NCBI GenBank assembly: GCA_963973915.1
Contig: CAXBBM010000003.1
Coordinates: forward strand, 99,003-123,002
Direction of reading: 5' to 3'
DNA: 24,000 nt
DNA from: an uncultured Polycyclovorans sp.
GTDB taxonomy: Bacteria > Pseudomonadota > Gammaproteobacteria > Nevskiales > Nevskiaceae
Positions 1,282 to 19,278 of this stretch are shown in pieces. The notes beneath the pieces are model-generated. The model was not told where the DNA came from. It did not search any database and saw nothing but the letters and a program-made list of their open reading frames with translations. Numbering within the stretch: the first letter of the stretch is position 1; each line of letters begins with the position of its first letter. A program made the position numbers and the translations under genes.

Positions 1282-1355
1282 GTCCCGCAGGCCGCAGGTC
1301 AAGCGATGGCGTGGTCAGTTTTTTCTCACCCTTTATTCAGGAACCCGAACCCCAA

Positions 1356-2534
1356 ATGAGCAAAGCCAGTTTTCAATGGGAAGACCCGCTGCTGCTGGAA
1401 TCTCAGCTCAGTGACGAAGAGCGCCTGGTGCGCGAAGCCACGCGCGACTACTGCCAGGAGCGCCTGCTGCCGCGGGTGCGTGACGCGCACCGGCATGAGC
1501 ATTTCGACCGCGAGATCATGAACGAGATGGGCGCGCTGGGCCTGCTGGGCGCCTCCCTGCACGGCTACGGCTGCCCGGGCGTGAGCCACGTCGCCTATGG
1601 CCTGATCGCGCGCGAAGTGGAGCGCGTGGACTCCGGTTATCGCTCGGCCATGAGCGTGCAGTCGTCGCTGGTGATGTATCCGATCTACGCCTATGGCACC
1701 GAGGCACAGAAGCAGAAATACCTGCCGAAACTCGCCAGCGGCGAATGGGTGGGCTGTTTCGGCCTGACCGAGCCGGATCACGGGTCCGATCCCGGCAGCA
1801 TGATCACCCGCGCCCGCGCCACCGACGGCGGCTATCTGCTGAGCGGCGCGAAGATGTGGATCACCAACTCGCCGATTGCCGACGTGTTCGTGGTCTGGGC
1901 CAAGGACGACGCCGGGCAGATTCGCGGCTTCGTGCTCGAAAAAGGCATGAAGGGTCTGTCGGCGCCGAAGATCGAGGGCAAGTTCAGCCTGCGTGCCTCG
2001 ATCACCGGCGAGATCGTCATGGACTCGGTGTTCGTTCCGCAGGAAAACCTGCTGCCCGAGGTGAGCGGACTCAAGGGGCCGTTCGGCTGCCTCAACAAGG
2101 CGCGCTACGGCATCGCCTGGGGCGCGATGGGTGCGGCGGAGTTCTGCTGGCAGGGCGCACGGGACTACACCCTGGGCCGCAAGCAGTTCGGCCGGCCGCT
2201 CGCGGCCAACCAGCTCATCCAGAAAAAGCTGGCCGACATGCAGACCGAGATCACCCTGGGCCTGCACGCCGCATTGAGGGTGGGACGCCTGATGGACGAG
2301 GGCATGGCCGCGCCGGAAATGATCTCGCTCATCAAGCGCAACAACTGCGGCAAGGCCCTGGACATCGCCCGCGTTGCGCGTGACATGCACGGCGGCAACG
2401 GCATCTCCGACGAATACCACGTGATTCGCCACGTGCTGAACCTGGAAGCCGTCAATACCTACGAAGGCACGCACGACGTGCATGCGCTGATCCTCGGGCG
2501 GGCGCAGACCGGCATCGCCGCGTTCGGCGGCTGA
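1356..2534 (+). CDS. gcdH: Glutaryl-CoA dehydrogenase
   Basis: Start trimmed to ATG 1356 ([18 protein letters not shown]...), giving 392 aa. There is near-collinear similarity to remembered Pseudomonas GcdH ([84 protein letters not shown]). Confidence 0.9.
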
Positions 2535-4203: not shown

Positions 4204-5342
4204 GGCGGGGCTTCCGCGAGGCGCGCGCCGCCCTGTTCACGCAGGTCCACGCGCGGAATTACGGACATGCCGGGGGCCAGGTGCAGGGCGGGGTCGGGCG
4301 CGGGATCGAACACCAGCTTCACCGGCACGCGCTGCACCACTTTCACGAAATTGCCGCTCGCGTTTTCAGGCGGCAGCAGGCTGAACGCTGAACCCGTGCC
4401 GGCCTGCAGGCTGTCCACCCGGCCGCTGAAATGCCGACCGGGATAGGCGTCCACCTCGATCTCGACGGGCTGGCCGACACGCAGGTCTTCGAGCTGGGTT
4501 TCCTTGAAGTTGGCGACCACCCAAGGCTGGTCGCCGACCAGGGCCAGCACCGGTGTGCCCATCTGTACCTGCGAGCCGGGCAGCACGTTCTTGCGCGTGA
4601 CCCGACCGGCGACCGGCGCGGTGACGCGGCAGTAGCGCAGCTGCAACGCGGCCTGGTCGCGCGCCGCCTGGGCCTGGGCCACGGCGGCCTCGGCACTGGC
4701 CAGAGCCGCCTCCTGGGCCGCGATCTGCTGGGCCAGCGTCTGCGCGCCGCGCAGCCCGGCCTGCACGCCCTCGGCCTCGGCCTGCAGCGCCAGATGACTG
4801 CTGCGGGCCTGTTCCAGCACCTGACGCGGGATTTGGTCCTTGGCGAACAGCGCTTCGTAACGACGTTCGTCGGCGGCGGCCTTTTCGGCCCGGGCGCGGG
4901 CGCTGCGCACCGCCGCGGCCGCCTGGGCAAGTGCGGCGGGGGCGCGTGTGCGGGTCATGTCCAGCTCGGCGCGGGCCACCTGCACCCGCGCCTCTGCAGC
5001 GGCCAGGTCGGCGCTGACCTGCCGCAGGCGCGCCTCGTGATCGGCGGGATCCAGTTCAAACAGCAGTGCCCCGGCCTCGACCCTCTGGTTGTCGGTGACC
5101 GGCACCCTGACCACCGTTCCGGAAATGCGGGGCGCGATCATGGTGATGTTGGCCTGGATGTAGGCATCGTCGGTCGACGTGTGGCCACGGTTCATCCACC
5201 AGAACAGGCCCAGCCCCAGTGCCACCAGGGCCACTGCCAGCAGCCATGGCCATCGGCGCGGCGCCGCAGCGGCGGTGGGGGCATCGGCAGGCTGGGGCGT
5301 GTTCATCGTCAGGTTCTCGGCAGAATCGGTGTGGGGGCTCAC
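4200..5342 (-). CDS. HlyD-family membrane fusion protein (EmrA-like)
   Basis: 380 aa with a single N-terminal TM segment (WPWLLAVALVALGLGLFWW), a DDAYIQANI motif, a long Ala/Gln-rich coiled-coil and a C-terminal beta-barrel region. The GTG start overlaps the OMP stop (GTGA). An alternative ATG lies at 5306. Confidence 0.85.
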   Translation of the reverse strand: MSPHTDSAENLTMNTPQPADAPTAAAAPRRWPWLLAVALVALGLGLFWWMNRGHTSTDDAYIQANITMIAPRISGTVVRVPVTDNQRVEAGALLFELDPADHEARLRQVSADLAAAEARVQVARAELDMTRTRAPAALAQAAAAVRSARARAEKAAADERRYEALFAKDQIPRQVLEQARSSHLALQAEAEGVQAGLRGAQTLAQQIAAQEAALASAEAAVAQAQAARDQAALQLRYCRVTAPVAGRVTRKNVLPGSQVQMGTPVLALVGDQPWVVANFKETQLEDLRVGQPVEIEVDAYPGRHFSGRVDSLQAGTGSAFSLLPPENASGNFVKVVQRVPVKLVFDPAPDPALHLAPGMSVIPRVDLREQGGARLAEAPP

Positions 5343-6694
5343 AGGCCGAAGCCGGATGCGTGTCCGGTGGCGGCGGCAAGGTTCAGCCGGGCCTGTTGCT
5401 GGGCGGCTTGTGCATTCACGAGCTGGCTGCGGGCACGGGCAAGGTTGGCCTGGGCGGCGACCACATCAAGGTTGTCGGCCACGCCGTGCCGGAAGCGATC
5501 GCGCGCAGAGGCCAGCTCGCGCTGCGCCAGTTCCAGTGCGGCGTGCGCCGCGCGCGCCTGTTCGGCCGTGTTGCCCACGGTGACCACGGCAAGCAGCACG
5601 TCTTCCTCGACCTGACGTTGCAGGGCGGCCAGTTGCAGTCGCTGTTGCTCGATGCGCAGTTCGGACGCGGCCCTGTCAGCCTGCAGGGCGCCGCCGGCGT
5701 AGATCGGCAGACTGAGCTGAGCGCCGATGCGATAGGTGTCCTGCTGGTCCCAGCGATCGGTCGTGGTGGACAGGCCATAGTCGGCGACCAGCGACAGCGT
5801 CGGCAGGCGGCGGCGGCTGGCCTGCGCGTACCGCGCCTCGGCTTCGGCCATCGTGGCGTCGAGCAGCGCAAACTCGGGCCGGTCACGTCGTGCCTGCGTC
5901 AGGGCGGCTTCCGGCCCCGGCGTCTCGTCCCCCTCGGGGGCTTCAAGCGCGCCCTGTAGCGTCAGTGGCGCGGGGTCCAGCGGCAGTTCGCTGAGACCCT
6001 GCAGCCGCAACTGCGAACGCGCCAGCAGGGTCTGCGCTTCCGACCGTGTGTAGCGGGATTGCGCCACTGCCGTTTGCGCGCGGAGGACGTCCACGCCGGA
6101 TGCGACGCCCGCTGCGTGCTGGTCGTGCGCCAGCGTGTCCAGTTCCATGGCCAGGTCCAGGTCGGCCTCGGTGCTGGCCAGATTCTCGCGAGCGGCCAGG
6201 GCGCGGATGAATGCGAGGGCGACTTCAGAGGCCAGGCGTTCACGATCGAGATCGGCCCGCGCCTGCGCGGCGCGTACCGCCGCGTCCGCTGCCGAGCCGG
6301 CGCTGATCTGGGCCAGGTCGATCACCGCCTGCGACAGGCGCAGCCGTGCGTCGAACACGCCGAACGGCCCGATCAGCGAAGGCAGACCCGGAAACTCCAG
6401 TCCCAGCGTGTCGGGATTGACGGTTTCGCGGGTCGCGGTCGCCCCCGCGCTCAGGTGGGGGCGCAATGCGGCATCCGTCGCGACCGCCCTTTGCCGCGCG
6501 ACGGCCACCTCGCGGTCTGCCACGCGGGGGCCGGCGGCGCAGCGCTGGGCCCGTTCGATCAAGGTTTGCAGCGTGAGCCCTTCGGCGGCGGGCAGATCGG
6601 AACAGGGGGTCTGGGCACGCGCCGCACCCAACGCCATCGACCCGGCCATCGCCAGGATGATGCCGACGCGGGCCAGCGATAAATGATCATTCAT
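5339..6694 (-). CDS. TolC-family outer membrane efflux protein
   Basis: Start trimmed to ATG 6694 (MNDHLSLARVGIILAMAGSMALGAARA|QTP signal peptide). The body shows the repeated alpha-helical/beta OMP-efflux pattern. The start overlaps the marR stop by 8 nt. Confidence 0.8.
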   Translation of the reverse strand: MNDHLSLARVGIILAMAGSMALGAARAQTPCSDLPAAEGLTLQTLIERAQRCAAGPRVADREVAVARQRAVATDAALRPHLSAGATATRETVNPDTLGLEFPGLPSLIGPFGVFDARLRLSQAVIDLAQISAGSAADAAVRAAQARADLDRERLASEVALAFIRALAARENLASTEADLDLAMELDTLAHDQHAAGVASGVDVLRAQTAVAQSRYTRSEAQTLLARSQLRLQGLSELPLDPAPLTLQGALEAPEGDETPGPEAALTQARRDRPEFALLDATMAEAEARYAQASRRRLPTLSLVADYGLSTTTDRWDQQDTYRIGAQLSLPIYAGGALQADRAASELRIEQQRLQLAALQRQVEEDVLLAVVTVGNTAEQARAAHAALELAQRELASARDRFRHGVADNLDVVAAQANLARARSQLVNAQAAQQQARLNLAAATGHASGFGL

Positions 6695-7202
6695 GCTGAT
6701 TATTCGGGTTGTTCGGAGTGGTCGCGTGCTGCACCAGTCGAACCAGCAATTCCTGCAACAGCGCGCGCTCACCGGGGCTCAGCGGTTCGAGAAATCGTGC
6801 CTCCTCGTCTTCCAGCGCCGGCTGAAGCCGGGCAATCCAGCGCTCGCCCTGGGGCGTGAGGCTCAGGGTGTTGGCCCGGCGATCGGTGGCTGAACGCTTG
6901 CGCGACACCAGCGCCCGCCGTTCAAGGTCGTCCGCCATCTTCATGGTGGTCGTCCGGTCAGTGCCCAGCAGGGCCGAGATTTGCGCCTGACTCAAGCCGG
7001 GGCGCTGCAGCAGCAGGCGGACCAGGGCGAAATGCCGCGCTTGCAGTCCCGACGGCTGGATGACCGCGTCCAGGCCACGAATCAGCTCGAGTCGCGCCCG
7101 CGCCAGGACGAATCCCAGGTGATCACAGAATTCTTCCGGGATGGGATTCGAGAGGTCGTCGGCAGGGGCGCATGCGGTGCGGGGCCGAATCCGGGTGGGC
7201 AT
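6687..7202 (-). CDS. MarR-family transcriptional regulator
   Basis: 171 aa with a winged-helix core (LSQAQISALLGTDRTTTMKMADDLERRALVSRKRSATDRRANTLSLTPQG). It is the first gene of the efflux operon, and an AT-rich patch at 7225-7250 upstream is the likely promoter/operator zone. Confidence 0.85.
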   Translation of the reverse strand: MPTRIRPRTACAPADDLSNPIPEEFCDHLGFVLARARLELIRGLDAVIQPSGLQARHFALVRLLLQRPGLSQAQISALLGTDRTTTMKMADDLERRALVSRKRSATDRRANTLSLTPQGERWIARLQPALEDEEARFLEPLSPGERALLQELLVRLVQHATTPNNPNNQHE

Positions 7203-7420
7203 CGAAGGGTAGGGGCAGCGAAAGAATGCTCAGTATTGCTGATTAAAAGAACGCCGTCCATGCCTCAGAACACCTGCGCACATGGCCTGCCGCTAGTGGG
7301 TCGCTCAGGTGGCTGCGGCGGCGCGTTCTCGGGCGGGTGGCGGCCACGCTGAAGCCCGCCGCCTCCAGTGCCAAGACGGCTGTGCTTTCCACTTAGGTTC
7401 GGCTCAGTGCAGCCCGTCGG

Positions 7421-8065
7421 TCAGGCGTCGGTCACGGTCGTCGGCACCGGCGGCAGGGCGCTGTCGATCATGTGATCGATGAAGCGGACCACGGACGCTT
7501 GATCGACGCTCGCGAAGCGCATCATCACGATCATGTGGGCCTGGCCGACGAGAATGCGCGCGGCATCGCCGGAAATGACCGCCGGGCAGATCGAGCCGGC
7601 GGTACGGCCCGCTTCGATCATCTGCTCGAACATGTCGATGATGCGTTCCTGCACCTCGACGTAATGCAGCCAGACGCCCTCGCGGACCGAGGTGCTCCAG
7701 TCCAGCCAGACCCGCATGTGCTGTGGTTGCGCGTCAACGCAGGCCTGGAAGGCGTGAAATATGTCGAGCACACGGCTGCGCACATCGGCGGCGGTGGCCC
7801 CGACTGCCATGACCGCATACAGAAATTGTTCGATCTCCCTCAGCACGGCATCAAGCAGGCGTTCGCGGGTGGGGAAATACTCGAAAACGGTGGCCACCGA
7901 CACCGCTGCAAGGCGTGCAACGTCGGCGTGACCGGCCCTGGCGGTGCCGCGCTCGGCGAACGCGGTGATGGCGCAGTCGAGCAACTGGCGCTTGCGCGCC
8001 TCGCGGTCCATGCGCCGGCGCGGCGGCTTGTCTGCAGGACGTGTTGTCGGGGCGGATTTGTTCAT
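7421..8065 (-). CDS. TetR/AcrR-family transcriptional regulator, divergent from the CuMMO operon
   Basis: N-terminal HTH (RKRQLLDCAITAFAERGTARAGHADVARLAAVSVATVFEYFPTRERLL) followed by a helical ligand-binding domain. The start is set at ATG 8065 (MNKSAPT...). The ORF is also open to ATG 8119, and neither start has a clear SD. Confidence 0.85.
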   Translation of the reverse strand: MNKSAPTTRPADKPPRRRMDREARKRQLLDCAITAFAERGTARAGHADVARLAAVSVATVFEYFPTRERLLDAVLREIEQFLYAVMAVGATAADVRSRVLDIFHAFQACVDAQPQHMRVWLDWSTSVREGVWLHYVEVQERIIDMFEQMIEAGRTAGSICPAVISGDAARILVGQAHMIVMMRFASVDQASVVRFIDHMIDSALPPVPTTVTDA

Positions 8066-8182
8066 CGCGCGAAAGATAGCAGCGCCGGGGGCTCCCGTCC
8101 TGCCGCGCGCTGCGCGCATGTCGGTCGCGTCGGGCCGTGAACAGGGCAGTTGCGTGGACCAGCGCCATTCGTCGGCGCGATG

Positions 8183-8211
8183 TTGACAACTCTATCAATT
8201 TGGTTTCTAGT
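8183..8211 (+). promoter_or_regulatory. Candidate sigma70 promoter for xmoC overlapped by an inverted repeat (possible TetR operator)
   Basis: Consensus -35 TTGACA at 8183-8188, a 17-nt spacer, and a weak -10 TCTAGT at 8206-8211. TTGACA-ACTC-TATCAA (8183-8198) is an inverted repeat of TTGAYA half-sites. It lies in the only AT-rich patch of the 364-bp tetR-xmoC spacer. Confidence 0.3.
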
Positions 8212-8259
8212 CCAGTCCATAGACCCCGATCACGGGGCTCGCGGTGAGGAGACAAAAAG

Positions 8260-8415
8260 ATGAAATCAATCGATCGATCGGCCCGTTTGTCGGCACGGAT
8301 CGCGCGCCGCGTCGAAGCGGTTGCACCTCGCCCTCGCTTCAGCTCAGTTGTGTGTCCGGCGCGCGACGTCGGCCCGGTGTGCCCGGCCGGTTTCGGCCCG
8401 TTTTTAACCCGTTGA
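8260..8415 (+). CDS. Candidate 51-aa upstream/leader ORF in the xmoC 5' leader
   Basis: ATG 8260 is preceded by TGAGGAGA (8245-8252), the same SD octamer that precedes xmoC (8415-8422). Translation: MKSIDRSARLSARIARRVEAVAPRPRFSSVVCPARDVGPVCPAGFGPFLTR. The stop TGA 8413-8415 abuts the xmoC SD. The peptide is Arg-rich with a lower GC3 than neighbouring genes, so it may be non-coding. Confidence 0.3.
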   Translation: MKSIDRSARLSARIARRVEAVAPRPRFSSVVCPARDVGPVCPAGFGPFLTR

Positions 8416-8429
8416 TGAGGAGAACCACC

Positions 8430-9224
8430 ATGTCGATCCAAGCGTCGTCAATCCCTTCCGCCCGGGTGCCCAGTACGCCCAAGGCGGAGAAGATGTTCAA
8501 CCTAGGGCCCGTTGCCATCGGCTGGGGGCTGTTGCTCGCAATCTACGCCGGGTTTCGCCTTTACCAGGGCGCGTTCTCGTTCGAGTACGGACTGGATGCC
8601 ACCTCGCCGGAATTTGCGACCTACTGGCTCACCTTGTTCCAGATCGAGGTGCCGCTGATCTTCGGCAGCGGCCTGTGCATCTGGTTGTACCTGTGGTTCA
8701 CCCGCGACCGCGACATGGACAACATGAGCGGTGAGACCGAGCTGAAGCGTTACTTCGGTCTGCTGGCCTGGTTCATGATGTACACCTTCTCGTTTCTGTG
8801 GATCGCCAGCTTCTTCGGTGAAGGCGACGCCACCTGGCACCAGACGGTGATCCGCGATACCGCGCTCACGCCCAGTCACATCGTGGTGTTCTACGCCTGC
8901 GTGCCGATGTACATCGTGTTCGGCGTCAGCAGCCTGCTGTATGCGACCACGCGCATTCCCGCGTTCGCACGGGGCTATTCGCTGCCTCTGATCATGGCGG
9001 TGCTTGGCCCCGGCCTGATTCTGCCCAACCTCGGCTTCAACGAATGGGGCCATGCGTTCTGGATGACCGAAGAAATCTTCAGCCATCCCCTGCACTGGGG
9101 CTTCCCGATTCTGGGCTGGACCGGCCTTGCCCTGGGCGGTTTGTTCATCCAGGTGATCGGCCGCATGGCCGTGTTGTTCAAGGAAGTCGGCGGTCCGCCG
9201 GCAGAAGACGCAGACCTGGCCTGA
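8430..9224 (+). CDS. xmoC: Copper membrane monooxygenase subunit C (PmoC/AmoC family)
   Basis: Start trimmed to ATG 8430 (SD GAGGAG 8417-8422), giving 264 aa. Family signatures: GEGDATWHQTVIRDTALTPSHI (Asp/His/His site) and LGFNEWGHAFWMTEEIFSHPLHWGF (Asn/His/His site). The protein is collinear with remembered M. capsulatus PmoC. Confidence 0.93.
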   Translation: MSIQASSIPSARVPSTPKAEKMFNLGPVAIGWGLLLAIYAGFRLYQGAFSFEYGLDATSPEFATYWLTLFQIEVPLIFGSGLCIWLYLWFTRDRDMDNMSGETELKRYFGLLAWFMMYTFSFLWIASFFGEGDATWHQTVIRDTALTPSHIVVFYACVPMYIVFGVSSLLYATTRIPAFARGYSLPLIMAVLGPGLILPNLGFNEWGHAFWMTEEIFSHPLHWGFPILGWTGLALGGLFIQVIGRMAVLFKEVGGPPAEDADLA

Positions 9225-9248
9225 GTCGCCAAGGTGCAGCACGGCGCC

Positions 9249-9270
9249 CGACCCCCGGCTGCGGGGGTCG
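9249..9270 (+). other. Perfect 9-bp GC hairpin in the xmoC-xmoA spacer (RNA stability/processing or partial terminator candidate)
   Basis: CGACCCCCG (9249-9257), loop GCTG, CGGGGGTCG (9262-9270), located 25 nt after the xmoC stop. No U-tract follows. Confidence 0.4.
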
Positions 9271-9385
9271 CGAGGCCTGATGACAAAAACGCTGTCGTCC
9301 AGCAGGGATCCGAGTCCGGCGCCGCGCCCAGCGCGCCGGCCGGCAAGAGTCTGGACAGACATAGAAGAATTCGAGGAGGGTGCCC

Positions 9386-10225
9386 ATGACTGAAAATGAC
9401 CGTGCGATTCTGAAAGTGTCCGAGCTGTCGCCCCAGGCGATCGGCTGGTCGCGAACGCTGGACCTGTTGATCATCGTTGTCGCCGCCTTCCTGATCTGGT
9501 CGGTGTCGCACATCAGTTTCCTGCTGCTCGGGGGCGACTGGGATTTCTTCATCGACTGGAAGGATCGCCAGTATTGGATCCTCATCATCCCGATCACCAC
9601 CATCATCATGGCGGCCTCGTTCCAGGCCATATTCTGGAATCTGTTCCGTCTCCCGATCGGCGCCACGGCAAGCCTGCTGCTGCTGTTGCTCGGCACCTGG
9701 ATCGTGCGTTACCACAGCTGGGAGGGGCTGGCCTATTTCCCCATCAGCCTGGTGGTGCCCGGAACCTGCCTCATGGGCGCGCTGGTGCTCGACGCCATTC
9801 TGGTGCTGTCGCGCAGCTGGCTGGTGACCGGCATGTTCGGCGCAACGCTGTACGGCCTGCTGTTCTATCCCGCCAACTGGACGTACATGGCCGGCTATTT
9901 CCAGCCGGTGATGAACATGGGCGACATGACCTCGGTCGCGGACCTGATCGGCTACGTCTTTCCGCGTGCCGGAACCCCCGAATACATCCGCATCATCGAG
10001 CGCGGCACCCTGCGCACCTTCGGTGACACGCCGACCTGGGTGTCGGCGTTCTTCGCCGCGTTCGTGTGCATCTTTTTGTATTACCTGTTCTGGGGTCTCG
10101 GTGTGCTGGCCTGCAATGCACGCTTTTTCCCGGTGGGCGAGCGCTTCAAGTCCCTCTACGGCGCCAAGGGCGCCAAGGACCAGACCGCCGGTGGCCCGGT
10201 CACCCAGCCAGGAGCCTCATCATGA
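9386..10225 (+). CDS. xmoA: Copper membrane monooxygenase subunit A (PmoA/AmoA family)
   Basis: ATG 9386 sits 6 nt after SD GAGGAGG (9373-9379), giving 279 aa. Signatures: GGDWDFFIDWKDRQYW, FYPANW and RAGTPEYIRIIERGTLRTFG. The stop overlaps the xmoB start (ATGA). Confidence 0.93.
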   Translation: MTENDRAILKVSELSPQAIGWSRTLDLLIIVVAAFLIWSVSHISFLLLGGDWDFFIDWKDRQYWILIIPITTIIMAASFQAIFWNLFRLPIGATASLLLLLLGTWIVRYHSWEGLAYFPISLVVPGTCLMGALVLDAILVLSRSWLVTGMFGATLYGLLFYPANWTYMAGYFQPVMNMGDMTSVADLIGYVFPRAGTPEYIRIIERGTLRTFGDTPTWVSAFFAAFVCIFLYYLFWGLGVLACNARFFPVGERFKSLYGAKGAKDQTAGGPVTQPGASS

Positions 10226-11511
10226 GCCTGCATCTCCGCATGCCGCGTCGCGGCCTGAGTCTGTCGCTGTTGCTCGCGGTGATGACGTTTGCCAGCACGC
10301 TGGTGCCGGTGCCCGTTGCCGCGCACGGCGAACGCGCCACCGAACCGTATATCCGCACCCGCACCGTGCACTGGTACGACGTTACCTGGTCGACGCAGCA
10401 GGTGGGGGTCAACGAGACGGTGACGGTGGAAGGCAAATTTCACCTGTTCACCGACTGGCCTGATGCCGCGTCCAAGCCGGAACTGGCGTTTCTGTCGAAT
10501 GCCACGCCTGGCGCGGTGATGACCCGCGTCGAGTCGTACATCAACGACATGCCGGCGCAACAGTCGGTAAGTCAGCTGGAAGTTGGGGGCGACTACAGCT
10601 TCAAGCTGGTGATGGCCGGTCGCGTGCCCGGTCGCTGGCACCTGCATCCGGTGCTCAGCGTGCATGGCGCAGGCCCCATCGTCGGGCCCGGCCACTGGGT
10701 CGAAGTCACCGGCAGCGCGGCGGACTACAAGCTGCCCATCACCACCATGACCGGCGAGGTGATTGACGACCTTCAGCACTACGGCGTCGCGCGCCTGCAG
10801 TTGTGGCAGGCCGGTTATGCCTTGATTGCCGTCGCCTGGATTTTCTGGTGGATCCGCCGGCCGCTGATCGTGCCGCGCTGGAATGCCATCCGTAAGGGAC
10901 GCGAAGATCTGCTGGTCACGCGCACCGATGACCGGGTCGCGGCCGCCATGCTGGTGCTGGTGCTGGTGGTGGTGATCTTCGGCTACCACCACGCCACTCA
11001 AAAGTATGAGTACGTGGTGCCACTGCAGGCCGGCTCGTTCAAGACCAAACCCCTGCCGCTGCCGCCCCCCGAAGTGGCGGTGCAAATGAAGGACGCCACC
11101 TACGACGTCCCCGGCCGCAGCCTGCGGCTCGACGTCGAGGTCACCAACCAGTCCGACTCACCGATGCGCCTCGGGGAATTCACCACCGCCAACCTGCGCT
11201 TCCTGAACAAGTCGCTGGCCGTGGCCTTGGCCGGGGTCGATCCCTCGTTCCCCAAGGACCTGGTTGCGGGTTCCGGCCTCAAGCTCAGCGACGATTCGCC
11301 CATCGCCCCCGGCGAGACGCGGACCATGCGTATCGAGGCCACCGATGCGGCCTGGGAGATCGAACGGCTTGTCAGCTTCCTGACCAACGTCGACAGCCGC
11401 GTGGGCGGCATGCTGTTCTTCTTTGACGCGCAAGGACAGCGCCACATGGTGGAAGTGTTCGGCCCGATCATCCCGGTGTTCACCCAGTTGCAGCTCGCGC
11501 AACGTCACTGA
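10222..11511 (+). CDS. xmoB: Copper membrane monooxygenase subunit B (PmoB/AmoB family)
   Basis: Start trimmed to ATG 10222 (SD AGGAG 10210-10214), giving 429 aa. The signal peptide ends VPVAA|HGERATEPYIRTRTVHWYD. Other features are GRWHLHPVLSVHGAGPIVGPGHW, two central TM helices, and a C-terminal cupredoxin domain (LGEFTTANLRFL, APGETRTMRIEATDAAWE, GMLFFFDAQG). Confidence 0.93.
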   Translation: MSLHLRMPRRGLSLSLLLAVMTFASTLVPVPVAAHGERATEPYIRTRTVHWYDVTWSTQQVGVNETVTVEGKFHLFTDWPDAASKPELAFLSNATPGAVMTRVESYINDMPAQQSVSQLEVGGDYSFKLVMAGRVPGRWHLHPVLSVHGAGPIVGPGHWVEVTGSAADYKLPITTMTGEVIDDLQHYGVARLQLWQAGYALIAVAWIFWWIRRPLIVPRWNAIRKGREDLLVTRTDDRVAAAMLVLVLVVVIFGYHHATQKYEYVVPLQAGSFKTKPLPLPPPEVAVQMKDATYDVPGRSLRLDVEVTNQSDSPMRLGEFTTANLRFLNKSLAVALAGVDPSFPKDLVAGSGLKLSDDSPIAPGETRTMRIEATDAAWEIERLVSFLTNVDSRVGGMLFFFDAQGQRHMVEVFGPIIPVFTQLQLAQRH

Positions 11512-11524
11512 GGGTTACGGCCAA

Positions 11525-12112
11525 ATGCAGAATCGATCGGCTTACCGCGGGTTACGCGCCGCGCTGCTCACCTGCGGCGCGGTGCTGGGGTTGGCGCTGT
11601 GTCAGGGGGCGGGCGCGCACGGCGGTCTGTCGATCGACGACGACATGTGCAAGCTGCGCCTGGGGCCGTTCAACATGCACTTCACCGGCTATCAGCCGGC
11701 GATCAATGGTAACCGCGAGTTCTGCGAAGACATTCCCAAGGTCGGCCATACCATCGTGGTCATGGATGCGATGGACCCCGAGTTGCGCGAAATGCCCATC
11801 GAGGTGCGGATCATTCGTGACACCGGCGACGAGCGCCAGCTCGATGCGATCACCGTGGCGCATCTGCCCCCGAAGATCTACGAATCGGGCAGCGTGCCGC
11901 TGGAATACAGCTTCACCACGCCGGGCAGGTTCGTCGGCCTGGTGACGGCCGGTGACCAGGGGCAGTACACCTCGCGCTTTCCGTTCAGTGTGGGCATTCC
12001 ACCAAAGCGCTACGGCTTCTATCTGCTGTTTGTTGGCGTCGCGCTGCTGGGCTTCGGGCTCTACCGTTATTCGGGAATGAAGCGACAACGCCAGATGGCC
12101 GACCAGATCTGA
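11525..12112 (+). CDS. Secreted, C-terminally membrane-anchored protein in the xmoD position (PmoD/AmoD-like, putative copper-binding)
   Basis: ATG 11525 lies 13 nt after the xmoB stop, giving 195 aa. Signal peptide MQNRSAYRGLRAALLTCGAVLGLALCQGAGA|HGG. The domain is rich in Cys, Met and His (DDDMCKLRLGPFNMHF, EFCEDIPKVGH, VVMDAMDPELREMP). A C-terminal TM helix YGFYLLFVGVALLGFGLYRY is followed by a basic tail. Homology to PmoD is inferred from position and architecture, not verified. Confidence 0.55.
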   Translation: MQNRSAYRGLRAALLTCGAVLGLALCQGAGAHGGLSIDDDMCKLRLGPFNMHFTGYQPAINGNREFCEDIPKVGHTIVVMDAMDPELREMPIEVRIIRDTGDERQLDAITVAHLPPKIYESGSVPLEYSFTTPGRFVGLVTAGDQGQYTSRFPFSVGIPPKRYGFYLLFVGVALLGFGLYRYSGMKRQRQMADQI

Positions 12113-12127
12113 GTCTGGCCGGCCATC
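12094..12127. terminator. Hairpin in the convergent junction between the xmo operon and the minus-strand CoA operon
   Basis: GATGGCCGACCAGA (12094-12107), loop TCTGAG, TCTGGCCGGCCATC (12114-12127), giving 14 pairs with one A/C mismatch. The loop contains the stop codon of the xmoD-position gene. There is no U-tract on either side. Confidence 0.35.
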
Positions 12128-12143
12128 CGGTTGCGGCAAGCGA

Positions 12144-12929
12144 TCAAACCCTGAAGTCGGGCTTGCGCTTTTCCAGGAAGGCGTTGACGCCCTCGCGATG
12201 CTCCGGGCTCTTGGCCGCGAGCACGAAGTGCGAGGACACCTGGTCGAGATGGGTGGTGAAGTCCAGGTGCAGGCCCTGGTACGCCGCCCGCTTGGTCAGA
12301 CGCATCGCGGTGGCGGCGCCGTCGGCCAGACGACGCGCCAGTGCACGGGCCTCGTTCTCCAGCTCCGCCAGCGGCACCACGCGATTGAACAGGCCGATGC
12401 GCCGGCCTTCCTCGGCTTCGACGAAATCGCCGGTGAGCAGCATCTCCAGCGCGCGCGGCAGGCCGACGATACGCGGCAGCAGCCAGGCGCCGCCGTCGCC
12501 GGGAACCAGGCCGATCTTGACGTAGCTCGCCGCCACCCGCGCGTTGTCGGCAGCGACGCGAAAATCACATTGCAGCGCCATGTCCAGGCCGGCCCCGGTG
12601 GCCGCGCCCTGCATCGCGGCCACGACCGGCTTGTCGATCTGCATCATAAGTTTCGGAATGCGATGCACGCCCGACCACAGCTTGGTCTTGTGGATCGACG
12701 GCGGACCTTCCAGCTCGCGCTTCATGTCGTGCAGATCGCCACCGGCGCAGAAATGACGGCCGTTGGCGCGCAGCAGCACGGCACGCACGGCGTCATCGTC
12801 GTGGCATTGCTGCAGGGCCGCGACCCAGGCATCGAGCATGGGCTCGTCGAAGGCATTGCCGGCGTCCGGCCGGTTGAGGACGATTTCGCCGACGCCGTCG
12901 ACGATGCTGAACAGCAGGGGTGCGGTCAT
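12144..12929 (-). CDS. Enoyl-CoA hydratase/isomerase (crotonase superfamily)
   Basis: 261 aa: GEIVLNRPDAGNAFD...RANGRHFCAGGDL...AAMQGAATGAGLDMALQCDFRVA, a typical crotonase fold signature. Confidence 0.88.
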   Translation of the reverse strand: MTAPLLFSIVDGVGEIVLNRPDAGNAFDEPMLDAWVAALQQCHDDDAVRAVLLRANGRHFCAGGDLHDMKRELEGPPSIHKTKLWSGVHRIPKLMMQIDKPVVAAMQGAATGAGLDMALQCDFRVAADNARVAASYVKIGLVPGDGGAWLLPRIVGLPRALEMLLTGDFVEAEEGRRIGLFNRVVPLAELENEARALARRLADGAATAMRLTKRAAYQGLHLDFTTHLDQVSSHFVLAAKSPEHREGVNAFLEKRKPDFRV

Positions 12930-12995
12930 GTGCAGGGGTTCCTGTGAGAGTGGGCCAGGCTCAACGCCCGGCGTACGAATGAAGGTGCAACGGAT

Positions 12996-13799
12996 TCAGC
13001 TGGCACGCGCGAGGATGGCGCGGGCGCGTTCGACGACCGGGCGATCCACCATCTGGCCGTTGAGCGCCACGGCGCGGCCGTCGGCGCTGTCGTCGGCCGC
13101 GACCACGCGGCGCGCCCAGTCGATGTCGGCCGGGGTCGGGCCGAAGCCGCGATGCACCGGCGCGATCTGCTGCGGGTGGATGCACAGCTTGCCCGTGAAG
13201 CCGAGCGAGGCGGACCGTCGCGTGTCGGCCTCGACCACGTCAGGATCGGAGAAGCTGGTGGTCACGCCGTCCACCGGCGAGGGCAGGCCGGCGAGGCGCG
13301 AGGCCAGCACCAACTGCATGCGGTAGGGATCGAGCACCGGCTCGTCGCCGGGAATGGCCAGGTCCAGGCGCAGGTCGATGCTGCCGAACACCAGGCGCTC
13401 GGTGCCGTTCGCCGTGGCGATGTCATCCAGCCGCGCCAGGCCCAGGCCACTTTCGATGGTGGGCAGCACCGGGCGCGCGGCGGCAAGGTGCAGTTCGGTG
13501 ACCAGCGCGCCGGACTCGGCCTTGGGCAGCACGATGCCGGCGATGCCGGGCAGCCCGCACAGCGCGCGATCCGCCGCGAACCACGGCGTCTGCTCGCCGT
13601 TGATGCGCAGCCAGATCGGTCGCGCGGCGTCGAGGCTGGCGCGCACCGCGGCGCGCGCGTCGTCCTTCTCGGCCGGTGGCACCGCGTCTTCCAGATCGAC
13701 GATCACCGCGTCGGCGCCGCTGGCGATGGCCTTGGCGATGCGTTCGCAGCGGTTGCCCGGCACGAACAGGTAGCTGCGCGCGGGGATCACGACAGCCAC
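12996..13799 (-). CDS. HpcH/HpaI-CitE family acyl-CoA lyase (citramalyl/malyl-CoA lyase-like)
   Basis: 267 aa with a GTG start: RSYLFVPGNRCERIAKAIASGADAVIVDLEDAV...GKLCIHPQQI, characteristic of CitE-like lyases. The start overlaps the upstream PrpD-family gene by 13 nt. Confidence 0.85.
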   Translation of the reverse strand: MAVVIPARSYLFVPGNRCERIAKAIASGADAVIVDLEDAVPPAEKDDARAAVRASLDAARPIWLRINGEQTPWFAADRALCGLPGIAGIVLPKAESGALVTELHLAAARPVLPTIESGLGLARLDDIATANGTERLVFGSIDLRLDLAIPGDEPVLDPYRMQLVLASRLAGLPSPVDGVTTSFSDPDVVEADTRRSASLGFTGKLCIHPQQIAPVHRGFGPTPADIDWARRVVAADDSADGRAVALNGQMVDRPVVERARAILARAS

Positions 13800-15157
13800 C
13801 CCTGGACGCTGGCCTCGCTCTCGAGATTCCAGACCCGCTGGATGATCGCCTTCATCTCGCCATCGCTTGCGCCGCGCGCGTAGGACGCGAGCCTTTGCGC
13901 CTTGTCCTCGAGTTCCGGCCGGCTAAGCGTGTTGCCGGGATCGCCCTTGGGTTCATCGACACGCGCCTCGAAGCTGCGGCCGTCGGTGGTCTTGACCCAG
14001 ACCTTGCCGATCCAGCGCGCCGGGTAGGCGCCTTCGACTTCCGCATCGAGCGTCATGCGCACCTTCTTGCGCACCGCGACCACCTTGGCATCCAGGTAGT
14101 GCGCGTCGAAATCCGGCAATTGCGCGCGGCCAAAGACGGCGATCAGACCCAGCACCGTGCCCATGGAGAACTTGGACTGATGCACGGAGGACGGTTCGAC
14201 CACCGGCGCCAGCACGTCGATGGCGCTCTGGTGCACGCCGCACAGCACGTCGGCGAGATCCTCGTGCTTGAGGTTTTCGCGCTGCATGAGGGTTTGCAGC
14301 GCATCGGCGGCCGGGTGCGTGTGACGGCAGGACGCATGGAACTTGAAGGAGGACTCGGCCAGGGTCCATCGCGTGCCCAGGCCATCGACCAGCTTGGCCG
14401 GGTCGGCGCCCTCGGACATCGAGGCACCCATGCCACCGGCACCTTCCAGCGCGCGCCGCGCACCGGTATAGCCGTCGGCGGCCAGCTCCGCGGCGGTGAT
14501 GCCGGCCATCGCGGCATGCGCGCAGTGCAGCTGCTTGGACTGTGCGCCTTCGCGCAGGTATTCCCAGAGCCCGCCGGCCTGCGTCGCCGCACTGCCGAAG
14601 GCCCAGGCCATCTGCTCGGCATTCAGGTTGAGCAGGCGTCCGGCGGTGGCCGCCGCCGCGATGCAGCCGACCGTCGCCGTGGTGTGGAAGCGCTTGTAGT
14701 GCGCGCGGCCCAGGAACTCGCCGATGCGGATGCCCACCTCGTAACCGGCGACGATGGCTTCCAGCATCTGCGCGCCGCTGGCCTTGCGCGACTGTGCGAG
14801 GGCCAGCGCCGGCCCGAACACCACGGCGGCGGCGTGAAACACCGAGCCGTTGTGCACGTCGTCCTGCTCGACCATGTGCGAGGCGCCCGAGTTGAGCATG
14901 GCGGCGAACAGCGGATCGACGCGCTTGCGCGAGGTCAGCAGTTCGGCATCGCCGGGCTTGGCGTGGCGCTCGACGAAGCGCTCCAGCGCCTGCACCGGTT
15001 CGCCGCTGCGGCCGGCAAGGGCGCAGGCCATCCAGTCCAGGAACAGATCTTCGGCGCGGCGCAGCACATGGGCTGGAACGCGGGCGCAGGAAATCTCGGC
15101 GGCGAAGCGGGCGAGTTCGGCGCCCTGGTCGGCGGCGGGGGTGAGGGTGAGAGTCAT
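13787..15157 (-). CDS. MmgE/PrpD-family protein (2-methylcitrate dehydratase-like, function unknown)
   Basis: Start trimmed to ATG 15157 (MTLTLTPAADQG...), giving 456 aa. The length and motifs (SGASHMVEQDDVH, GFHTTATVG-like KRFHTTATVGCIAAAA, FKFHASCRHTHPAADA) fit the PrpD family. Confidence 0.85.
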   Translation of the reverse strand: MTLTLTPAADQGAELARFAAEISCARVPAHVLRRAEDLFLDWMACALAGRSGEPVQALERFVERHAKPGDAELLTSRKRVDPLFAAMLNSGASHMVEQDDVHNGSVFHAAAVVFGPALALAQSRKASGAQMLEAIVAGYEVGIRIGEFLGRAHYKRFHTTATVGCIAAAATAGRLLNLNAEQMAWAFGSAATQAGGLWEYLREGAQSKQLHCAHAAMAGITAAELAADGYTGARRALEGAGGMGASMSEGADPAKLVDGLGTRWTLAESSFKFHASCRHTHPAADALQTLMQRENLKHEDLADVLCGVHQSAIDVLAPVVEPSSVHQSKFSMGTVLGLIAVFGRAQLPDFDAHYLDAKVVAVRKKVRMTLDAEVEGAYPARWIGKVWVKTTDGRSFEARVDEPKGDPGNTLSRPELEDKAQRLASYARGASDGEMKAIIQRVWNLESEASVQGWLS

Positions 15158-15194
15158 GTGCGGTTCTTTGAATGGGTGAGAAAAGGTGCTGGGT

Positions 15195-17536: not shown

Positions 17537-17572
17537 GAGTTGTGATGGGGGATTTCAGTGGTGGTGGAGGCA

Positions 17573-19269: not shown

Positions 19270-19278
19270 GGCAGCGCG

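What the first reader, a model, noticed from the sequence alone, without database searches (positions are those of the whole stretch)
7421..12112. Divergent copper membrane monooxygenase operon (xmoCAB plus a fourth gene) next to a TetR regulator, outside any methanotroph or nitrifier gene context
Seen in sequence:
- Three consecutive + strand genes are unmistakable PmoC/AmoC, PmoA/AmoA and PmoB/AmoB homologues in C-A-B order.
- XmoB matures to an N-terminal His (VPVAA|HGE...) and keeps the WHLH pair, which is the CuB His-brace ligand set.
- XmoC keeps D-x3-H plus the TPSH His (CuC-type Asp/His/His). It also keeps N-x3-H plus a His 14 residues later (NEWGH...SHPLH, CuD-type Asn/His/His).
- By eye the proteins align collinearly with remembered M. 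capsulatus Bath PmoCAB but carry many substitutions. For example, the Met residues around the PmoA H-x3-M...GDWD segment are Leu/Gly here.
- The window holds no methanol dehydrogenase, formaldehyde pathway or hydroxylamine oxidoreductase genes. The flanks are a TetR regulator, an efflux pump and acyl-CoA metabolism.

Established knowledge:
- The CuMMO family includes pMMO and AMO.
- It also includes short-chain alkane/alkene monooxygenases in Actinobacteria (hmoCAB, bmoCAB) and in some Beta/Gammaproteobacteria (xmoCABD lineages).

Inference: this is an uncharacterised CuMMO lineage, probably substrate-inducible (adjacent TetR) and acting on a hydrocarbon or other non-methane, non-ammonia substrate.
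Basis: partly seen in the sequence, partly recalled or inferred. Interest (0 to 1): 0.9.

Follow-up and report, generated by a model that had tools for sequence, protein, structure and literature searches.

The report
Orphan copper monooxygenase operon with regulator
This is an intact four-gene operon for a copper membrane monooxygenase in a Nevskiaceae bacterium; it belongs to an already recorded group of such enzymes that probably oxidise small hydrocarbons rather than methane or ammonia, and its neighbouring regulator has a conserved DNA target.

Summary
Window 8430-12112 (+) holds xmoC, xmoA, xmoB and a fourth gene. A TetR gene lies divergently upstream at 7421-8065 (-).

- **Family.** Pfam E-values are 5e-85, 1e-77 and 2e-143. 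All CuB, CuC and CuD ligands are kept. dN/dS is 0.09-0.19.
- **Fourth gene.** It is a PmoD/AmoD homologue (PDB 6CPD, E 3e-22). Its motif is the AmoD type Cx8MHxnC, not the CuA-forming type.
- **Lineage.** XmoA is 41-48% identical to AMO, pMMO and Pxm, and 36% to actinobacterial Hmo. It sits in a 100%-bootstrap clade with Nevskiaceae MAGs (86-96%), Rhodoferax, Bradyrhizobium and Solimonas aquatica. This clade is already listed in the literature as CuMMOs of unknown or alkane-linked function, so it is not a new lineage.
- **What is new here.** The regulator is of the LuxR/HapR type. A 16-bp palindrome (8183-8198) overlaps a TTGACA hexamer. It is unique in the window and recurs in every xmo locus with this TetR upstream of xmoC.

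The efflux pump and the acyl-CoA genes are lineage-specific neighbours. The substrate remains inferred, most likely C2-C4 alkanes. Verdict: a new member of a known kind, of moderate interest.

The parts
7421..8065 (-). TetR-family regulator of the LuxR/HapR/OpaR/SmcR subtype (214 aa; the ORF extends to 8119)
   Evidence: Pfam TetR_N 1.2e-08. NCBIfam's best match is HapR NF040929 at 2.4e-29, but 102 bits is below the 350 cut-off. PDB OpaR 8zf3 scores 1.3e-31, with HapR, LuxR and SmcR at 1e-24 to 1e-29; the next TetR class scores only 1e-7. Homologues of 214 aa begin at MNKSAPTT. dN/dS is 0.15 against L003.
8183..8198 (.). Imperfect palindrome TTGACAACTCTATCAA, the putative TetR operator; TTGACA at 8183-8188 doubles as a -35-like hexamer
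   Evidence: It is the only match in the window; 0.04 are expected by chance. It is the best-conserved block of the tetR-xmoC intergenic alignment, including L020 where the rest has diverged. It is a perfect palindrome in L002 (TTGACAACATTGTCAA). It is found in all seven TetR-bearing xmo loci held at the time and in none of the other 76 loci. It also occurs in L087 and beside TetR homologues in the non-xmo loci L085 and L089. The half-site ATTGATA equals the half-site of an SmcR target (PMC2859563).
8183..8211 (+). Candidate sigma-70 promoter directed at xmoC: TTGACA, 17 nt, TCTAGT
   Evidence: Read from the sequence. The -10-like hexamer is semi-conserved (TCTAGT, TGTAGT, TGAAGT, TGGAAT). It was not called by the consensus scan, which found 0 promoters, so this is inference only.
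8212..8429 (+). Long leader of xmoC. It contains a conserved small hairpin (8224-8238), a GAGGAG-N8-ATG motif that opens a 51-codon uORF (8260-8415), and a terminator-like hairpin with a T-run (8385-8398)
   Evidence: The uORF start and length are conserved in L001, L003 and L005. The peptide is poorly conserved and GC by codon position is flat, so it is probably not an ordinary gene. The leader is not unusually structured (z +1.6) and has no Rfam match.
8430..9224 (+). xmoC (264 aa), CuMMO subunit C with CuC-type and CuD-type ligands
   Evidence: Pfam AmoC 4.9e-85. PDB AmoC and PmoC score 2e-69 to 1e-61. E131, D133, H137, H150, N204, H208 and H222 are invariant in 23 of 23 clade loci. A conserved AGGAG RBS precedes the ATG.
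9386..10225 (+). xmoA (279 aa), CuMMO subunit A
   Evidence: Pfam AMO 1.3e-77. It reaches 99% identity to a public cluster, and the identical protein is on record in many assemblies.
10222..11511 (+). xmoB (429 aa), CuMMO subunit B with signal peptide and CuB His brace
   Evidence: Pfam Monooxygenase_B 2.3e-143. M. capsulatus PmoB scores 1.3e-121 over residues 16-420. H35, H140 and H142 are conserved; H50 and H74 (the Bath bis-His positions) are also present.
11525..12112 (+). xmoD (195 aa), a PmoD/AmoD-family periplasmic copper protein with signal peptide and C-terminal membrane helix
   Evidence: PDB 6CPD PmoD scores 3.4e-22 over residues 40-157. There is no Pfam or NCBIfam model hit. The motif C42-x8-M51-H52...C67 is the AmoD-type Cx8MHxnC of Fisher 2018. 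It follows xmoB in nearly all related loci. The mature N-terminus HGG is invariant.

Best explanation
The region is a functional xmoCABD operon of a Nevskiaceae gammaproteobacterium (relatives labelled Panacagrimonas or Nevskia).

**Enzyme.** XmoC, XmoA and XmoB would assemble into the usual trimeric copper membrane monooxygenase of the inner membrane. It keeps the PmoB-type His brace (CuB) and the PmoC-type CuC and CuD sites. It would use O2 and membrane-derived reductant to hydroxylate a small hydrophobic substrate. The most likely substrate is a C2-C4 alkane oxidised to its alcohol. Methane and ammonia are not expected as growth substrates.

**Accessory protein.** XmoD is an AmoD-type copper protein tethered to the membrane by a C-terminal helix. 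It would act as an accessory factor, in copper supply, electron transfer or stabilisation.

**Regulation.** Transcription is controlled from the divergent intergenic region by the adjacent LuxR/HapR-type TetR protein. It binds the palindrome TTGACAA-N3-TATCAA. That site overlaps the -35 hexamer of a candidate xmoC promoter, which points to repression by occlusion and autoregulation.

**Shown.** Gene content and order, ligand conservation, purifying selection, clade membership, and the co-occurrence of TetR with the palindrome.

**Inferred.** The substrate, the XmoD role, the promoter, the direction of regulation and any inducer.
For: - **Family membership and ligands:**
- **Operon compactness:** ATGA overlap of xmoA and xmoB, and a 13-nt gap between xmoB and xmoD.
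- **Purifying selection:** dN/dS is 0.09-0.19 on all five genes, against 0.09-0.10 for flanking housekeeping-type genes.
- **Phylogeny:** the window lies in a 100%-bootstrap clade with Nevskiaceae MAGs, Rhodoferax, Acidovorax, Bradyrhizobium, Extensimonas and Solimonas aquatica. It is separate from AMO (41-42% identity), comammox AMO (40-42%), pMMO (45-47%), Pxm (48%) and actinobacterial Hmo or Rhodococcus ZPP (36-37%).
- **Alkane link:** eight non-Nevskiaceae clade loci (L010, L015, L017, L019, L020, L021, L023, L025) carry an aldehyde dehydrogenase, an acetyl-CoA hydrolase/transferase and/or a PQQ quinohaemoprotein alcohol dehydrogenase within 10 kb. None of the sister-lineage loci do.
- **Literature:** this group is treated as of unknown function (PMC6215863; PMC8630023). 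Rochman 2020 could not be read here. From my own knowledge, it linked related betaproteobacterial xmoCABD clusters to ethane and propane but not methane.
- **XmoD:**
- **Regulator and operator:**
Against: - No member of this clade has been characterised biochemically.
- The window itself has no alcohol or aldehyde dehydrogenase and no copCD next to the operon, unlike many relatives.
- NCBIfam scores XmoC and XmoB just above or above its bacterial AMO equivalog cut-offs (323 vs 319; 549 vs 336).
- The consensus scan called no promoter.
- LuxR/HapR-type proteins can activate as well as repress.
- The palindrome lies 232 nt from the xmoC start and 118 nt from the tetR start, so it might serve tetR autoregulation only.
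- My tree is neighbour-joining and lacks Haliea EmoA, Nocardioides BmoA and the Rochman reference sequences.
Confidence: 0.6

Rival explanations
1. It is a true particulate methane monooxygenase, and Nevskiaceae are overlooked methanotrophs.
For: Gregoire 2023 classed a Nevskiaceae MAG as a putative methanotroph on these genes and noted that this is untested. XmoB passes the TIGR03079 cut-off (450 vs 395). All pMMO copper ligands are kept.
Against: XmoA and XmoC fail the TIGR pMMO/AMO equivalog cut-offs (252 vs 318; 277 vs 281). XmoA is only 45-47% identical to pMMO and lies in a separate, well-supported clade with non-methanotrophs. No C1 genes occur in 24 kb, nor within the 10-kb flanks of the relatives inspected. 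From my own knowledge, Rochman 2020 found no methane assimilation by carriers of related genes.
Confidence: 0.08
2. It is an ammonia monooxygenase, supporting heterotrophic nitrification or ammonia co-oxidation.
For: NCBIfam AmoC_BACT and AmoB_BACT cut-offs are passed. The best PDB hits for XmoA and XmoC are AMO structures. The xmoCABD order with an AmoD-type fourth gene resembles gammaproteobacterial amoCABD.
Against: AmoA_BACT is not passed (274 vs 290). Identity to AMO is 41-42%, and the window lies outside the AOB plus comammox clade, which has 99% bootstrap. No HAO is nearby. The hosts in the clade are heterotrophs.
Confidence: 0.05
3. It is a CuMMO for another substrate class: alkenes such as ethylene, oxygenates such as acetone, or alicyclic hydrocarbons whose acids feed the flanking CoA cluster.
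For: CuMMOs are promiscuous, and acetone- and ethylene-oxidising members are known. A flanking AMP-ligase scores 682 bits on the cyclohexanecarboxylate-CoA ligase model (cut-off 792), and the neighbouring ACADs resemble pimC/pimD and cyclohexanecarboxyl-CoA dehydrogenases. A preprint links a CuMMO to methylated cycloalkanes (listed). This synteny is kept in all Nevskiaceae loci.
Against: The flanking genes are on the opposite strand. All score below their model cut-offs. They are shared only among close relatives, where synteny is uninformative. Other clade members carry different neighbours.
Confidence: 0.2
4. It is a decaying or silent horizontally acquired cluster with no current function.
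For: GC is slightly lower than in the flanks (0.62-0.65 vs 0.66-0.72). The clade's phylogeny is incongruent with taxonomy. copCD is lacking beside the operon.
Against: All reading frames are intact, all ligands are kept, and dN/dS is 0.09-0.19. The RBS, the operator and the regulator are conserved.
Confidence: 0.02

Closest known systems
Proteobacterial xmoCABD clusters of Solimonas aquatica DSM 25927, Bradyrhizobium spp. and Rhodoferax/Polaromonas (Khadka 2018; Rochman 2020)
   Same: Same well-supported XmoA clade (64-72% identity). Same C-A-B-D order and the same AmoD-type fourth gene. All copper ligands are kept, and the hosts are non-methanotroph, non-nitrifier bacteria.
   Different: The Nevskiaceae version lacks the downstream copC, copD-cytochrome c fusion and conserved 300-aa gene. 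It also lacks nearby alcohol and aldehyde dehydrogenases. Instead it carries a divergent LuxR/HapR-type TetR with a palindromic site.
Particulate methane monooxygenase PmoCAB of Methylococcus capsulatus Bath (PDB 1yew, 3rgb, 7s4h)
   Same: Collinear full-length alignment of all three subunits. CuB ligands H33/H137/H139, CuC ligands D156/H160/H173 and CuD ligands N227/H231/H245 all have equivalents. Even the Bath bis-His positions H48/H72 are present. The Bath residue numbering is from my own knowledge.
   Different: XmoA identity is 45-47% and it lies in a separate clade. PmoA H40, M42 and M45 are Ser, Leu and Gly here. There is no C1 metabolism context.
Bacterial ammonia monooxygenase, gammaproteobacterial amoCABD type (PDB 9cl6, 9leg, 9pxf)
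   Same: Best PDB scores for subunits A and C. Operon order C-A-B-D with an AmoD-type (Cx8MH) fourth gene.
   Different: XmoA identity is 41-42% and the window lies outside the AMO clade. AmoA_BACT is below its cut-off. No HAO context.
Actinobacterial hydrocarbon monooxygenase hmoCAB of Mycolicibacterium chubuense NBB4, and the Rhodococcus sp. ZPP CuMMO
   Same: A CuMMO used on C2-C4 alkanes and alkenes in a heterotroph. An AMP-binding ligase gene lies nearby in both.
   Different: XmoA identity is only 36-37%. No PmoD-type gene follows hmoB. The putative regulator is AcoR-type, and the genes are plasmid-borne.
Vibrio LuxR/HapR/SmcR/OpaR quorum-sensing master regulators (TetR family)
   Same: Far the closest solved relatives of the window's regulator (E 1e-24 to 1e-31 over about 180 residues). 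The palindromic target shares the ATTGATA half-site.
   Different: It is far below the NCBIfam equivalog cut-off (102 vs 350 bits). It is found in Nevskiaceae next to oxygenase operons rather than as a global quorum-sensing regulator. No Qrr or autoinducer context was examined.

Membership tests
Copper membrane monooxygenase (CuMMO) superfamily | Three subunits matching PF04896, PF02461 and PF04744 above gathering scores, encoded together | tested here: met
   285, 261 and 478 bits against cut-offs of 26.7, 27.5 and 22.7. The genes are adjacent in C-A-B order.
Copper membrane monooxygenase (CuMMO) superfamily | Conserved copper ligands: subunit B N-terminal His plus HxH; subunit C D-x3-H...H and N-x3-H...H | tested here: met
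   XmoB H35, H140 and H142. XmoC D133, H137, H150, N204, H208 and H222. All align to pMMO and AMO and are invariant in the clade.
Copper membrane monooxygenase (CuMMO) superfamily | Copper-dependent, acetylene-sensitive monooxygenase activity | not testable with these tools
   This needs enzyme or whole-cell assays.
Particulate methane monooxygenase (pMMO) | PmoA groups within pMMO clades, or passes the TIGR03080 equivalog cut-off | tested here: not met
   252 bits against a 318 cut-off. It lies outside the pMMO and Pxm branch. Identity is 45-47%.
Particulate methane monooxygenase (pMMO) | Host genome encodes methanol dehydrogenase and C1 assimilation | not testable with these tools
   Only 24 kb of the genome is available. 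None were found there or in the 10-kb flanks of the relatives inspected.
Bacterial ammonia monooxygenase (AMO) | All three subunits pass the NCBIfam AmoC/A/B_BACT equivalog cut-offs and group with AOB or comammox sequences | tested here: not met
   C scores 323 against 319 and B scores 549 against 336, so both pass. A scores 274 against 290 and fails. The tree places the window outside the AMO clade, which has 99% bootstrap.
Proteobacterial orphan/alkane-associated xmoCABD clade (Solimonas, Bradyrhizobium, Rhodoferax type) | XmoA is monophyletic with those sequences | tested here: met
   The clade has 100% bootstrap in an NJ tree of 58 sequences. Identity to members is 58-96%, against at most 53% to any other lineage.
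Proteobacterial orphan/alkane-associated xmoCABD clade (Solimonas, Bradyrhizobium, Rhodoferax type) | A fourth gene, xmoD, lies directly after xmoB | tested here: met
Proteobacterial orphan/alkane-associated xmoCABD clade (Solimonas, Bradyrhizobium, Rhodoferax type) | Growth on, or induction by, ethane or propane and not methane | not testable with these tools
   This rests on Rochman 2020, which is not held here, and on my own knowledge of its abstract.
PmoD/AmoD copper protein family | Signal peptide, cupredoxin-like periplasmic domain with two invariant Cys, and a C-terminal membrane helix | tested here: met
   6CPD scores E 3.4e-22. C42 and C67 are invariant. The N-terminal signal sequence and the C-terminal hydrophobic stretch FYLLFVGVALLGFGLY are read from the sequence. 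The family architecture is as described.
PmoD/AmoD copper protein family | The CuA-forming Cx7MxHxnC motif | tested here: not met
   The motif is C-x8-M-H (the AmoD type) in the window and throughout the clade.
LuxR/HapR-type TetR regulators | Sequence equivalence to HapR/LuxR (NCBIfam NF040929) | tested here: not met
   102.5 bits against a 350 cut-off. It is nevertheless by far the closest solved subfamily.
LuxR/HapR-type TetR regulators | A palindromic target with ATTGATA-type half-sites | tested here: inconclusive
   A conserved palindrome with this half-site lies next to the gene and its homologues. It resembles an SmcR site. Binding was not tested.

The most novel reading that the evidence does not exclude
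The LuxR/HapR-type TetR and its 16-bp palindrome form a dedicated, portable control module for oxygenase operons. It occurs beside CuMMO genes here and beside Rieske oxygenase genes in more distant homologues. Its effector would reveal the native substrate of this orphan CuMMO. That substrate might be something other than C2-C4 alkanes, for example an alicyclic hydrocarbon channelled into the adjacent cyclohexanecarboxylate-CoA-ligase-like cluster. It would be one of the first CuMMO operons with an identifiable regulator-operator pair.
Probability: 0.15. Interest if true: 0.7.

Novelty: new member of a known kind. Interest (0 to 1): 0.4.

Why it matters
**Annotation risk.** Orphan CuMMOs are routinely annotated as methane or ammonia monooxygenases. 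NCBIfam passes two of the three subunits here as AMO. This leads to claims of methanotrophy or nitrification in groups such as Nevskiaceae.

**Carbon-cycle inference.** Placing this operon firmly in the non-methane, non-ammonia clade helps to avoid that error.

**A route to the substrate.** Regulation of CuMMO operons is almost unknown; a review calls it a neglected area. The conserved TetR-palindrome pair is therefore a concrete handle. Binding and ligand screens could identify the inducer, and hence the substrate. The pair could also seed a short-chain hydrocarbon biosensor.

**Distribution.** The identical XmoA protein occurs in many public assemblies. This organism is therefore widespread in sequence data, whatever the reason.

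Tried and rejected
- **Rfam.** A gathering-threshold scan of the whole window found nothing.
- **Leader folding.** Folding 8215-8440 gave z +1.6, less stable than shuffles, so a riboswitch-like element is rejected.
- **Promoter scan.** The consensus scan found no promoter in 7300-12300. My promoter is therefore only a reading of the conserved TTGACA.
- **The uORF as a gene.** GC by codon position is flat, the synonymous-to-non-synonymous ratio is 4:6, and the peptide is poorly conserved. It is rejected as an ordinary gene and kept as a leader feature.
- **XmoD in family libraries.** Pfam and NCBIfam gave no family. Identification came only from the PDB sequence search.
- **Papers.** Rochman 2020 could not be read by DOI or PMC id. 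The sand-filter preprint held nothing relevant.
- **TetR as regulator of the efflux pump.** Rejected, because the pump has its own MarR and is absent in L003 and L005, while TetR, the palindrome and xmo stay together.
- **Acyl-CoA cluster as the downstream pathway.** Not adopted. The genes are on the opposite strand, score below their model cut-offs, and are shared only among close relatives.
- **TetR homologues at 58% identity or less.** They are not always next to xmo, so the link is lineage-limited.

Full report
**1. What is there**

The window has high G+C (0.61-0.72). ORF listing and domain scans give this map:

| Coordinates | Strand | Gene |
|---|---|---|
| 781-1281 | + | MaoC-type hydratase |
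| 1311-2534 | + | acyl-CoA dehydrogenase |
| 2617-6772 | - | MFS, HlyD and outer-membrane-factor efflux cassette |
| 6687-7202 | - | MarR |
| 7421-8065 | - | TetR |
| 8430-9224 | + | xmoC |
| 9386-10225 | + | xmoA |
| 10222-11511 | + | xmoB |
| 11525-12112 | + | fourth gene (xmoD) |
| from 12144 | - | enoyl-CoA hydratase, CitE-like lyase, MmgE/PrpD, two family-III CoA-transferases, an AMP-ligase and three acyl-CoA dehydrogenases |

- The three Xmo proteins match PF04896, PF02461 and PF04744 with E-values of 4.9e-85, 1.3e-77 and 2.3e-143.
- Start sites were refined by homology and ribosome-binding sites.
- xmoA and xmoB overlap by ATGA, and xmoD starts 13 nt after xmoB. This fits one transcription unit.

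**2. Metal sites**

- XmoB aligns over residues 16-420 with M. capsulatus PmoB at E 1.3e-121.
  - His35 follows the signal peptide, and His140/His142 match the HxH pair.
  - The two Bath 'bis-His' positions are also His here (H50, H74), although they vary within the clade.
- XmoC keeps E131, D133, H137, H150, N204, H208 and H222. All are invariant in 23 related loci.
His46 of pMMO and AMO is Ser, Asn or Gly in most of this clade.
- The pMMO residue numbering and site names come from my own knowledge of the published structures.

**3. The fourth gene**

- Pfam and NCBIfam give no hit. The PDB sequence search finds PmoD of Methylocystis sp. Rockwell (6CPD) at E 3.4e-22.
[quoted passage not shown] This is the PmoD/AmoD architecture described by Fisher et al. 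2018 (PMC6189053).
- Its motif is C42-x8-M51-H52...C67. This is the Cx8MHxnC type that Fisher et al. equate with AmoD. It is not the Cx7MxHxnC type, to which CuA formation was confined.
- The motif is conserved across all related loci.
- The predicted mature N-terminus, A|HGG(L/V)(S/A)(M/I)D-D-C, is also conserved, so the first residue is an invariant His.

**4. Which lineage**

- XmoA reaches 99% identity to a public cluster named 'methane monooxygenase/ammonia monooxygenase subunit A [Gammaproteobacteria bacterium]'. The identical 279-aa protein is on record in at least 23 contigs, including NCBI MAG GCA_002706265.1.
- A scan of one genome per species returned 80 loci. The nearest are MAGs labelled Panacagrimonas, Nevskia or Nevskiaceae, at 86-96% identity over the trimmed alignment.
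- I built a neighbour-joining tree of 58 XmoA sequences with 100 bootstraps. References came from PDB alignments (AMO 9pxf, 9leg, 9cl6; pMMO 1yew, 6cxh) and from plasmid records (hmoCAB of M. chubuense NBB4, Rhodococcus sp. ZPP, pxmABC of Methylomagnum).
- The window falls in a Nevskiaceae subclade with 100% support.
- That subclade lies inside a 100%-supported clade with Rhodoferax, Acidovorax, Sterolibacterium, Methylibium, Bradyrhizobium, Vitreoscilla, Extensimonas soli and Solimonas aquatica.
- This clade is sister (99%) to two further proteobacterial lineages. It is separate from AMO plus comammox AMO, from pMMO and Pxm, and from the actinobacterial enzymes.

| Reference group | XmoA identity |
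|---|---|
| AMO | 41-42% |
| comammox AMO | 40-42% |
| pMMO | 45-47% |
| Pxm | 48% |
| Hmo / Rhodococcus ZPP | 36-37% |

**5. What is already known**

- Khadka et al. [quoted passage not shown] - Awala et al. 2021 list Polaromonas, Rhodoferax and Solimonas aquatica CuMMOs as of unknown function.
- Rochman et al. 2020 (ISME J 14:714) is not held. From my own knowledge of its abstract, it tied such xmoCABD clusters in Rhodoferax and Polaromonas to ethane and propane use and excluded methane assimilation.
- Nevskiaceae MAGs with these genes have been reported and read as putative methanotrophs, explicitly untested (Gregoire 2023). Nevskiales MAGs with 'pmoCAB' appear in a 2026 groundwater survey.
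- I found no biochemical characterisation of the clade.
- The lineage is therefore known but functionally orphan.

**6. Context across relatives**

- tblastn synteny shows TetR(-) | xmoCABD(+) | ECH(-)... in all Nevskiaceae loci that reach far enough.
- The efflux cassette with MarR is present in the window, L001, L006/L007 and L087. It is absent in L003 and L005, where MaoC and ACAD abut TetR. The pump is therefore not part of the unit.
- I clustered the neighbours. Outside the Nevskiaceae subclade, xmoCABD is usually followed by CopC, a CopD-cytochrome c fusion and a conserved protein of about 300 aa with no Pfam match.
- Eight clade loci (L010, L015, L017, L019, L020, L021, L023, L025) also carry an aldehyde dehydrogenase, an acetyl-CoA hydrolase/transferase or a PQQ quinohaemoprotein alcohol dehydrogenase within 10 kb. 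None of the sister-lineage loci do.
- This supports a route from hydrocarbon to alcohol, aldehyde, acid and acyl-CoA for the clade. The window itself has none of these genes, nor copCD, within 24 kb.
- The window's flanking CoA genes score below all NCBIfam cut-offs. The closest models are:
  - cyclohexanecarboxylate-CoA ligase (682 vs 792 bits);
  - pimC/pimD-like dehydrogenases;
  - RipB/Ich-like hydratase and RipC/Ccl-like lyase.
- These genes are on the opposite strand and are shared only among close relatives. I do not count them as evidence of function.

**7. The regulator**

- The TetR is not a generic one. Its closest solved relatives are OpaR, HapR, LuxR and SmcR, at E 1e-24 to 1.3e-31 over about 180 residues. 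The next TetR class scores about 1e-7.
- It is far below NCBIfam's HapR equivalog cut-off (102 vs 350 bits).
- I aligned the tetR-xmoC intergenic regions. The best-conserved block is TG-TTGACAA-N3-T(A/G)TCAA-TA. It is a perfect palindrome in L002 and is recognisable in L020, where everything else has diverged.
- In the window it is 8183-8198 and is the only match; 0.04 are expected by chance.
- The strict pattern occurs once in each of the seven TetR-bearing xmo loci then held, and in none of the other 76 loci.
- A relaxed pattern also finds it in three further places:
  - between tetR and xmoC in L087;
  - between a 45%-identical TetR homologue and a Rieske oxygenase operon in L085;
  - just upstream of a 48%-identical homologue in L089.
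- A 55%-identical homologue lies downstream of an xmoCABD-copC-copD cluster (L084).
- The half-site ATTGATA equals that of an SmcR target.
- TTGACA of the palindrome, a 17-nt spacer and TCTAGT could form a promoter toward xmoC with the operator over its -35 hexamer. The consensus scan did not call it, so this is inference.
- Other lineages have AcoR-like or Crp/Fnr-type genes upstream of xmoC instead. A review notes that CuMMO regulation is essentially uncharacterised.

**8. Functionality**

- dN/dS against L003 is 0.15 (tetR), 0.10 (xmoC), 0.11 (xmoA), 0.09 (xmoB) and 0.19 (xmoD).
- The flanking genes give 0.09-0.10.
- The cluster is under purifying selection and is not decaying.

**9. Verdict**

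  - It is a non-methane, non-ammonia-type CuMMO with a PmoD/AmoD-type fourth gene and a linked TetR.
  - It belongs to an already recorded orphan clade.
  - The substrate (most likely C2-C4 alkanes, about 0.55-0.6) and inducibility remain inferred.
- The added value is fourfold:
  - the lineage placement;
  - the AmoD-type assignment of the fourth gene;
  - the separation of accidental neighbours from the unit;
  - the regulator-operator pair, which makes the substrate question experimentally approachable.

Noticed in passing
window 8212-8429: The xmoC leader is about 210 nt long. It has a conserved GAGGAG-N8-ATG motif that opens a 51-codon uORF (8260-8415), which ends just before the xmoC RBS. 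It also has a terminator-like hairpin with a T-run (8385-8398) and a small conserved hairpin (8224-8238). uORFs of the same length occur in L001, L003 and L005, but the peptide is poorly conserved and GC by codon position is flat. Its position recalls amoR upstream of amoC in Nitrosococcus. Possible attenuation or translational coupling is untested.
   Followed up: partly
window 11525-12112, and the xmoD genes of 24 further loci (L001-L078): Every XmoD in the set has the same predicted signal-peptide cleavage. It leaves an invariant N-terminal His (A|HGG(L/V)(S/A)(M/I)D-D-C), ten residues before the Cx8MH motif. An amino-terminal His suggests a His-brace-like copper site. I did not find this discussed in the parts of the PmoD paper that I read.
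   Followed up: partly
window 2617-7202: The MarR, outer-membrane-factor, HlyD and MFS efflux cassette next to TetR is a variable insert. It is present in the window, L001, L006/L007 and L087, and absent in L003 and L005.
   Followed up: yes
window 781-2534 and 12144-23409: The flanking CoA cluster includes an AMP-ligase close to the cyclohexanecarboxylate-CoA ligase model (682 bits, cut-off 792). It also has pimC/pimD-like acyl-CoA dehydrogenases, an Ich-like hydratase, a Ccl-like lyase and an MmgE/PrpD protein. It looks like an alicyclic or dicarboxylic acid degradation cluster. Any link to xmo is unproven.
   Followed up: partly
window 8430-11511: NCBIfam passes XmoC (323 vs 319) and XmoB (549 vs 336) as 'bacterial ammonia monooxygenase' equivalogs, although the tree puts them outside AMO. 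Automatic annotation will mislabel this clade. This feeds claims of methanotrophy or nitrification in Nevskiaceae.
   Followed up: yes
L090-L092 (contigs carrying the identical XmoA): The exact 279-aa XmoA is indexed in 122 blocks of the public collection. These include a Tara Oceans marine metagenome, a 'viral' metagenome and MAG GCA_002706265.1. The organism is either cosmopolitan or a recurrent contaminant of sequencing samples.
   Followed up: no
L010-L042, L073, L078 (downstream of xmoD): In other lineages xmoCABD is followed by copC, a copD-cytochrome c fusion (about 650 aa), a conserved protein of about 300 aa with no Pfam match, and small periplasmic proteins with no Pfam match. This extended operon is missing beside the Nevskiaceae version.
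   Followed up: partly
L085 6583-6598, L089 5975-5990: TetR homologues of 45-48% identity carry the same palindrome next to Rieske ring-hydroxylating oxygenase genes, or just upstream of their own gene. The regulator-operator pair therefore seems to be a module reused with different oxygenases.
   Followed up: partly
window 12095-12126: A 13-bp stem-loop with one mismatch spans the xmoD stop codon, between the convergent xmoD and enoyl-CoA hydratase genes. It has no T-run. It may be a bidirectional terminator or an mRNA-end stabiliser.
   Followed up: no
window 15195-17536: The 761-aa ORF at 15195-17480 (-) overlaps, in another frame, a 387-aa acyl-CoA dehydrogenase ORF at 16373-17536 (-). Only its C-terminal half is a CoA-transferase domain. 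The long ORF is probably an artefact of high G+C, covering two real genes.
   Followed up: no
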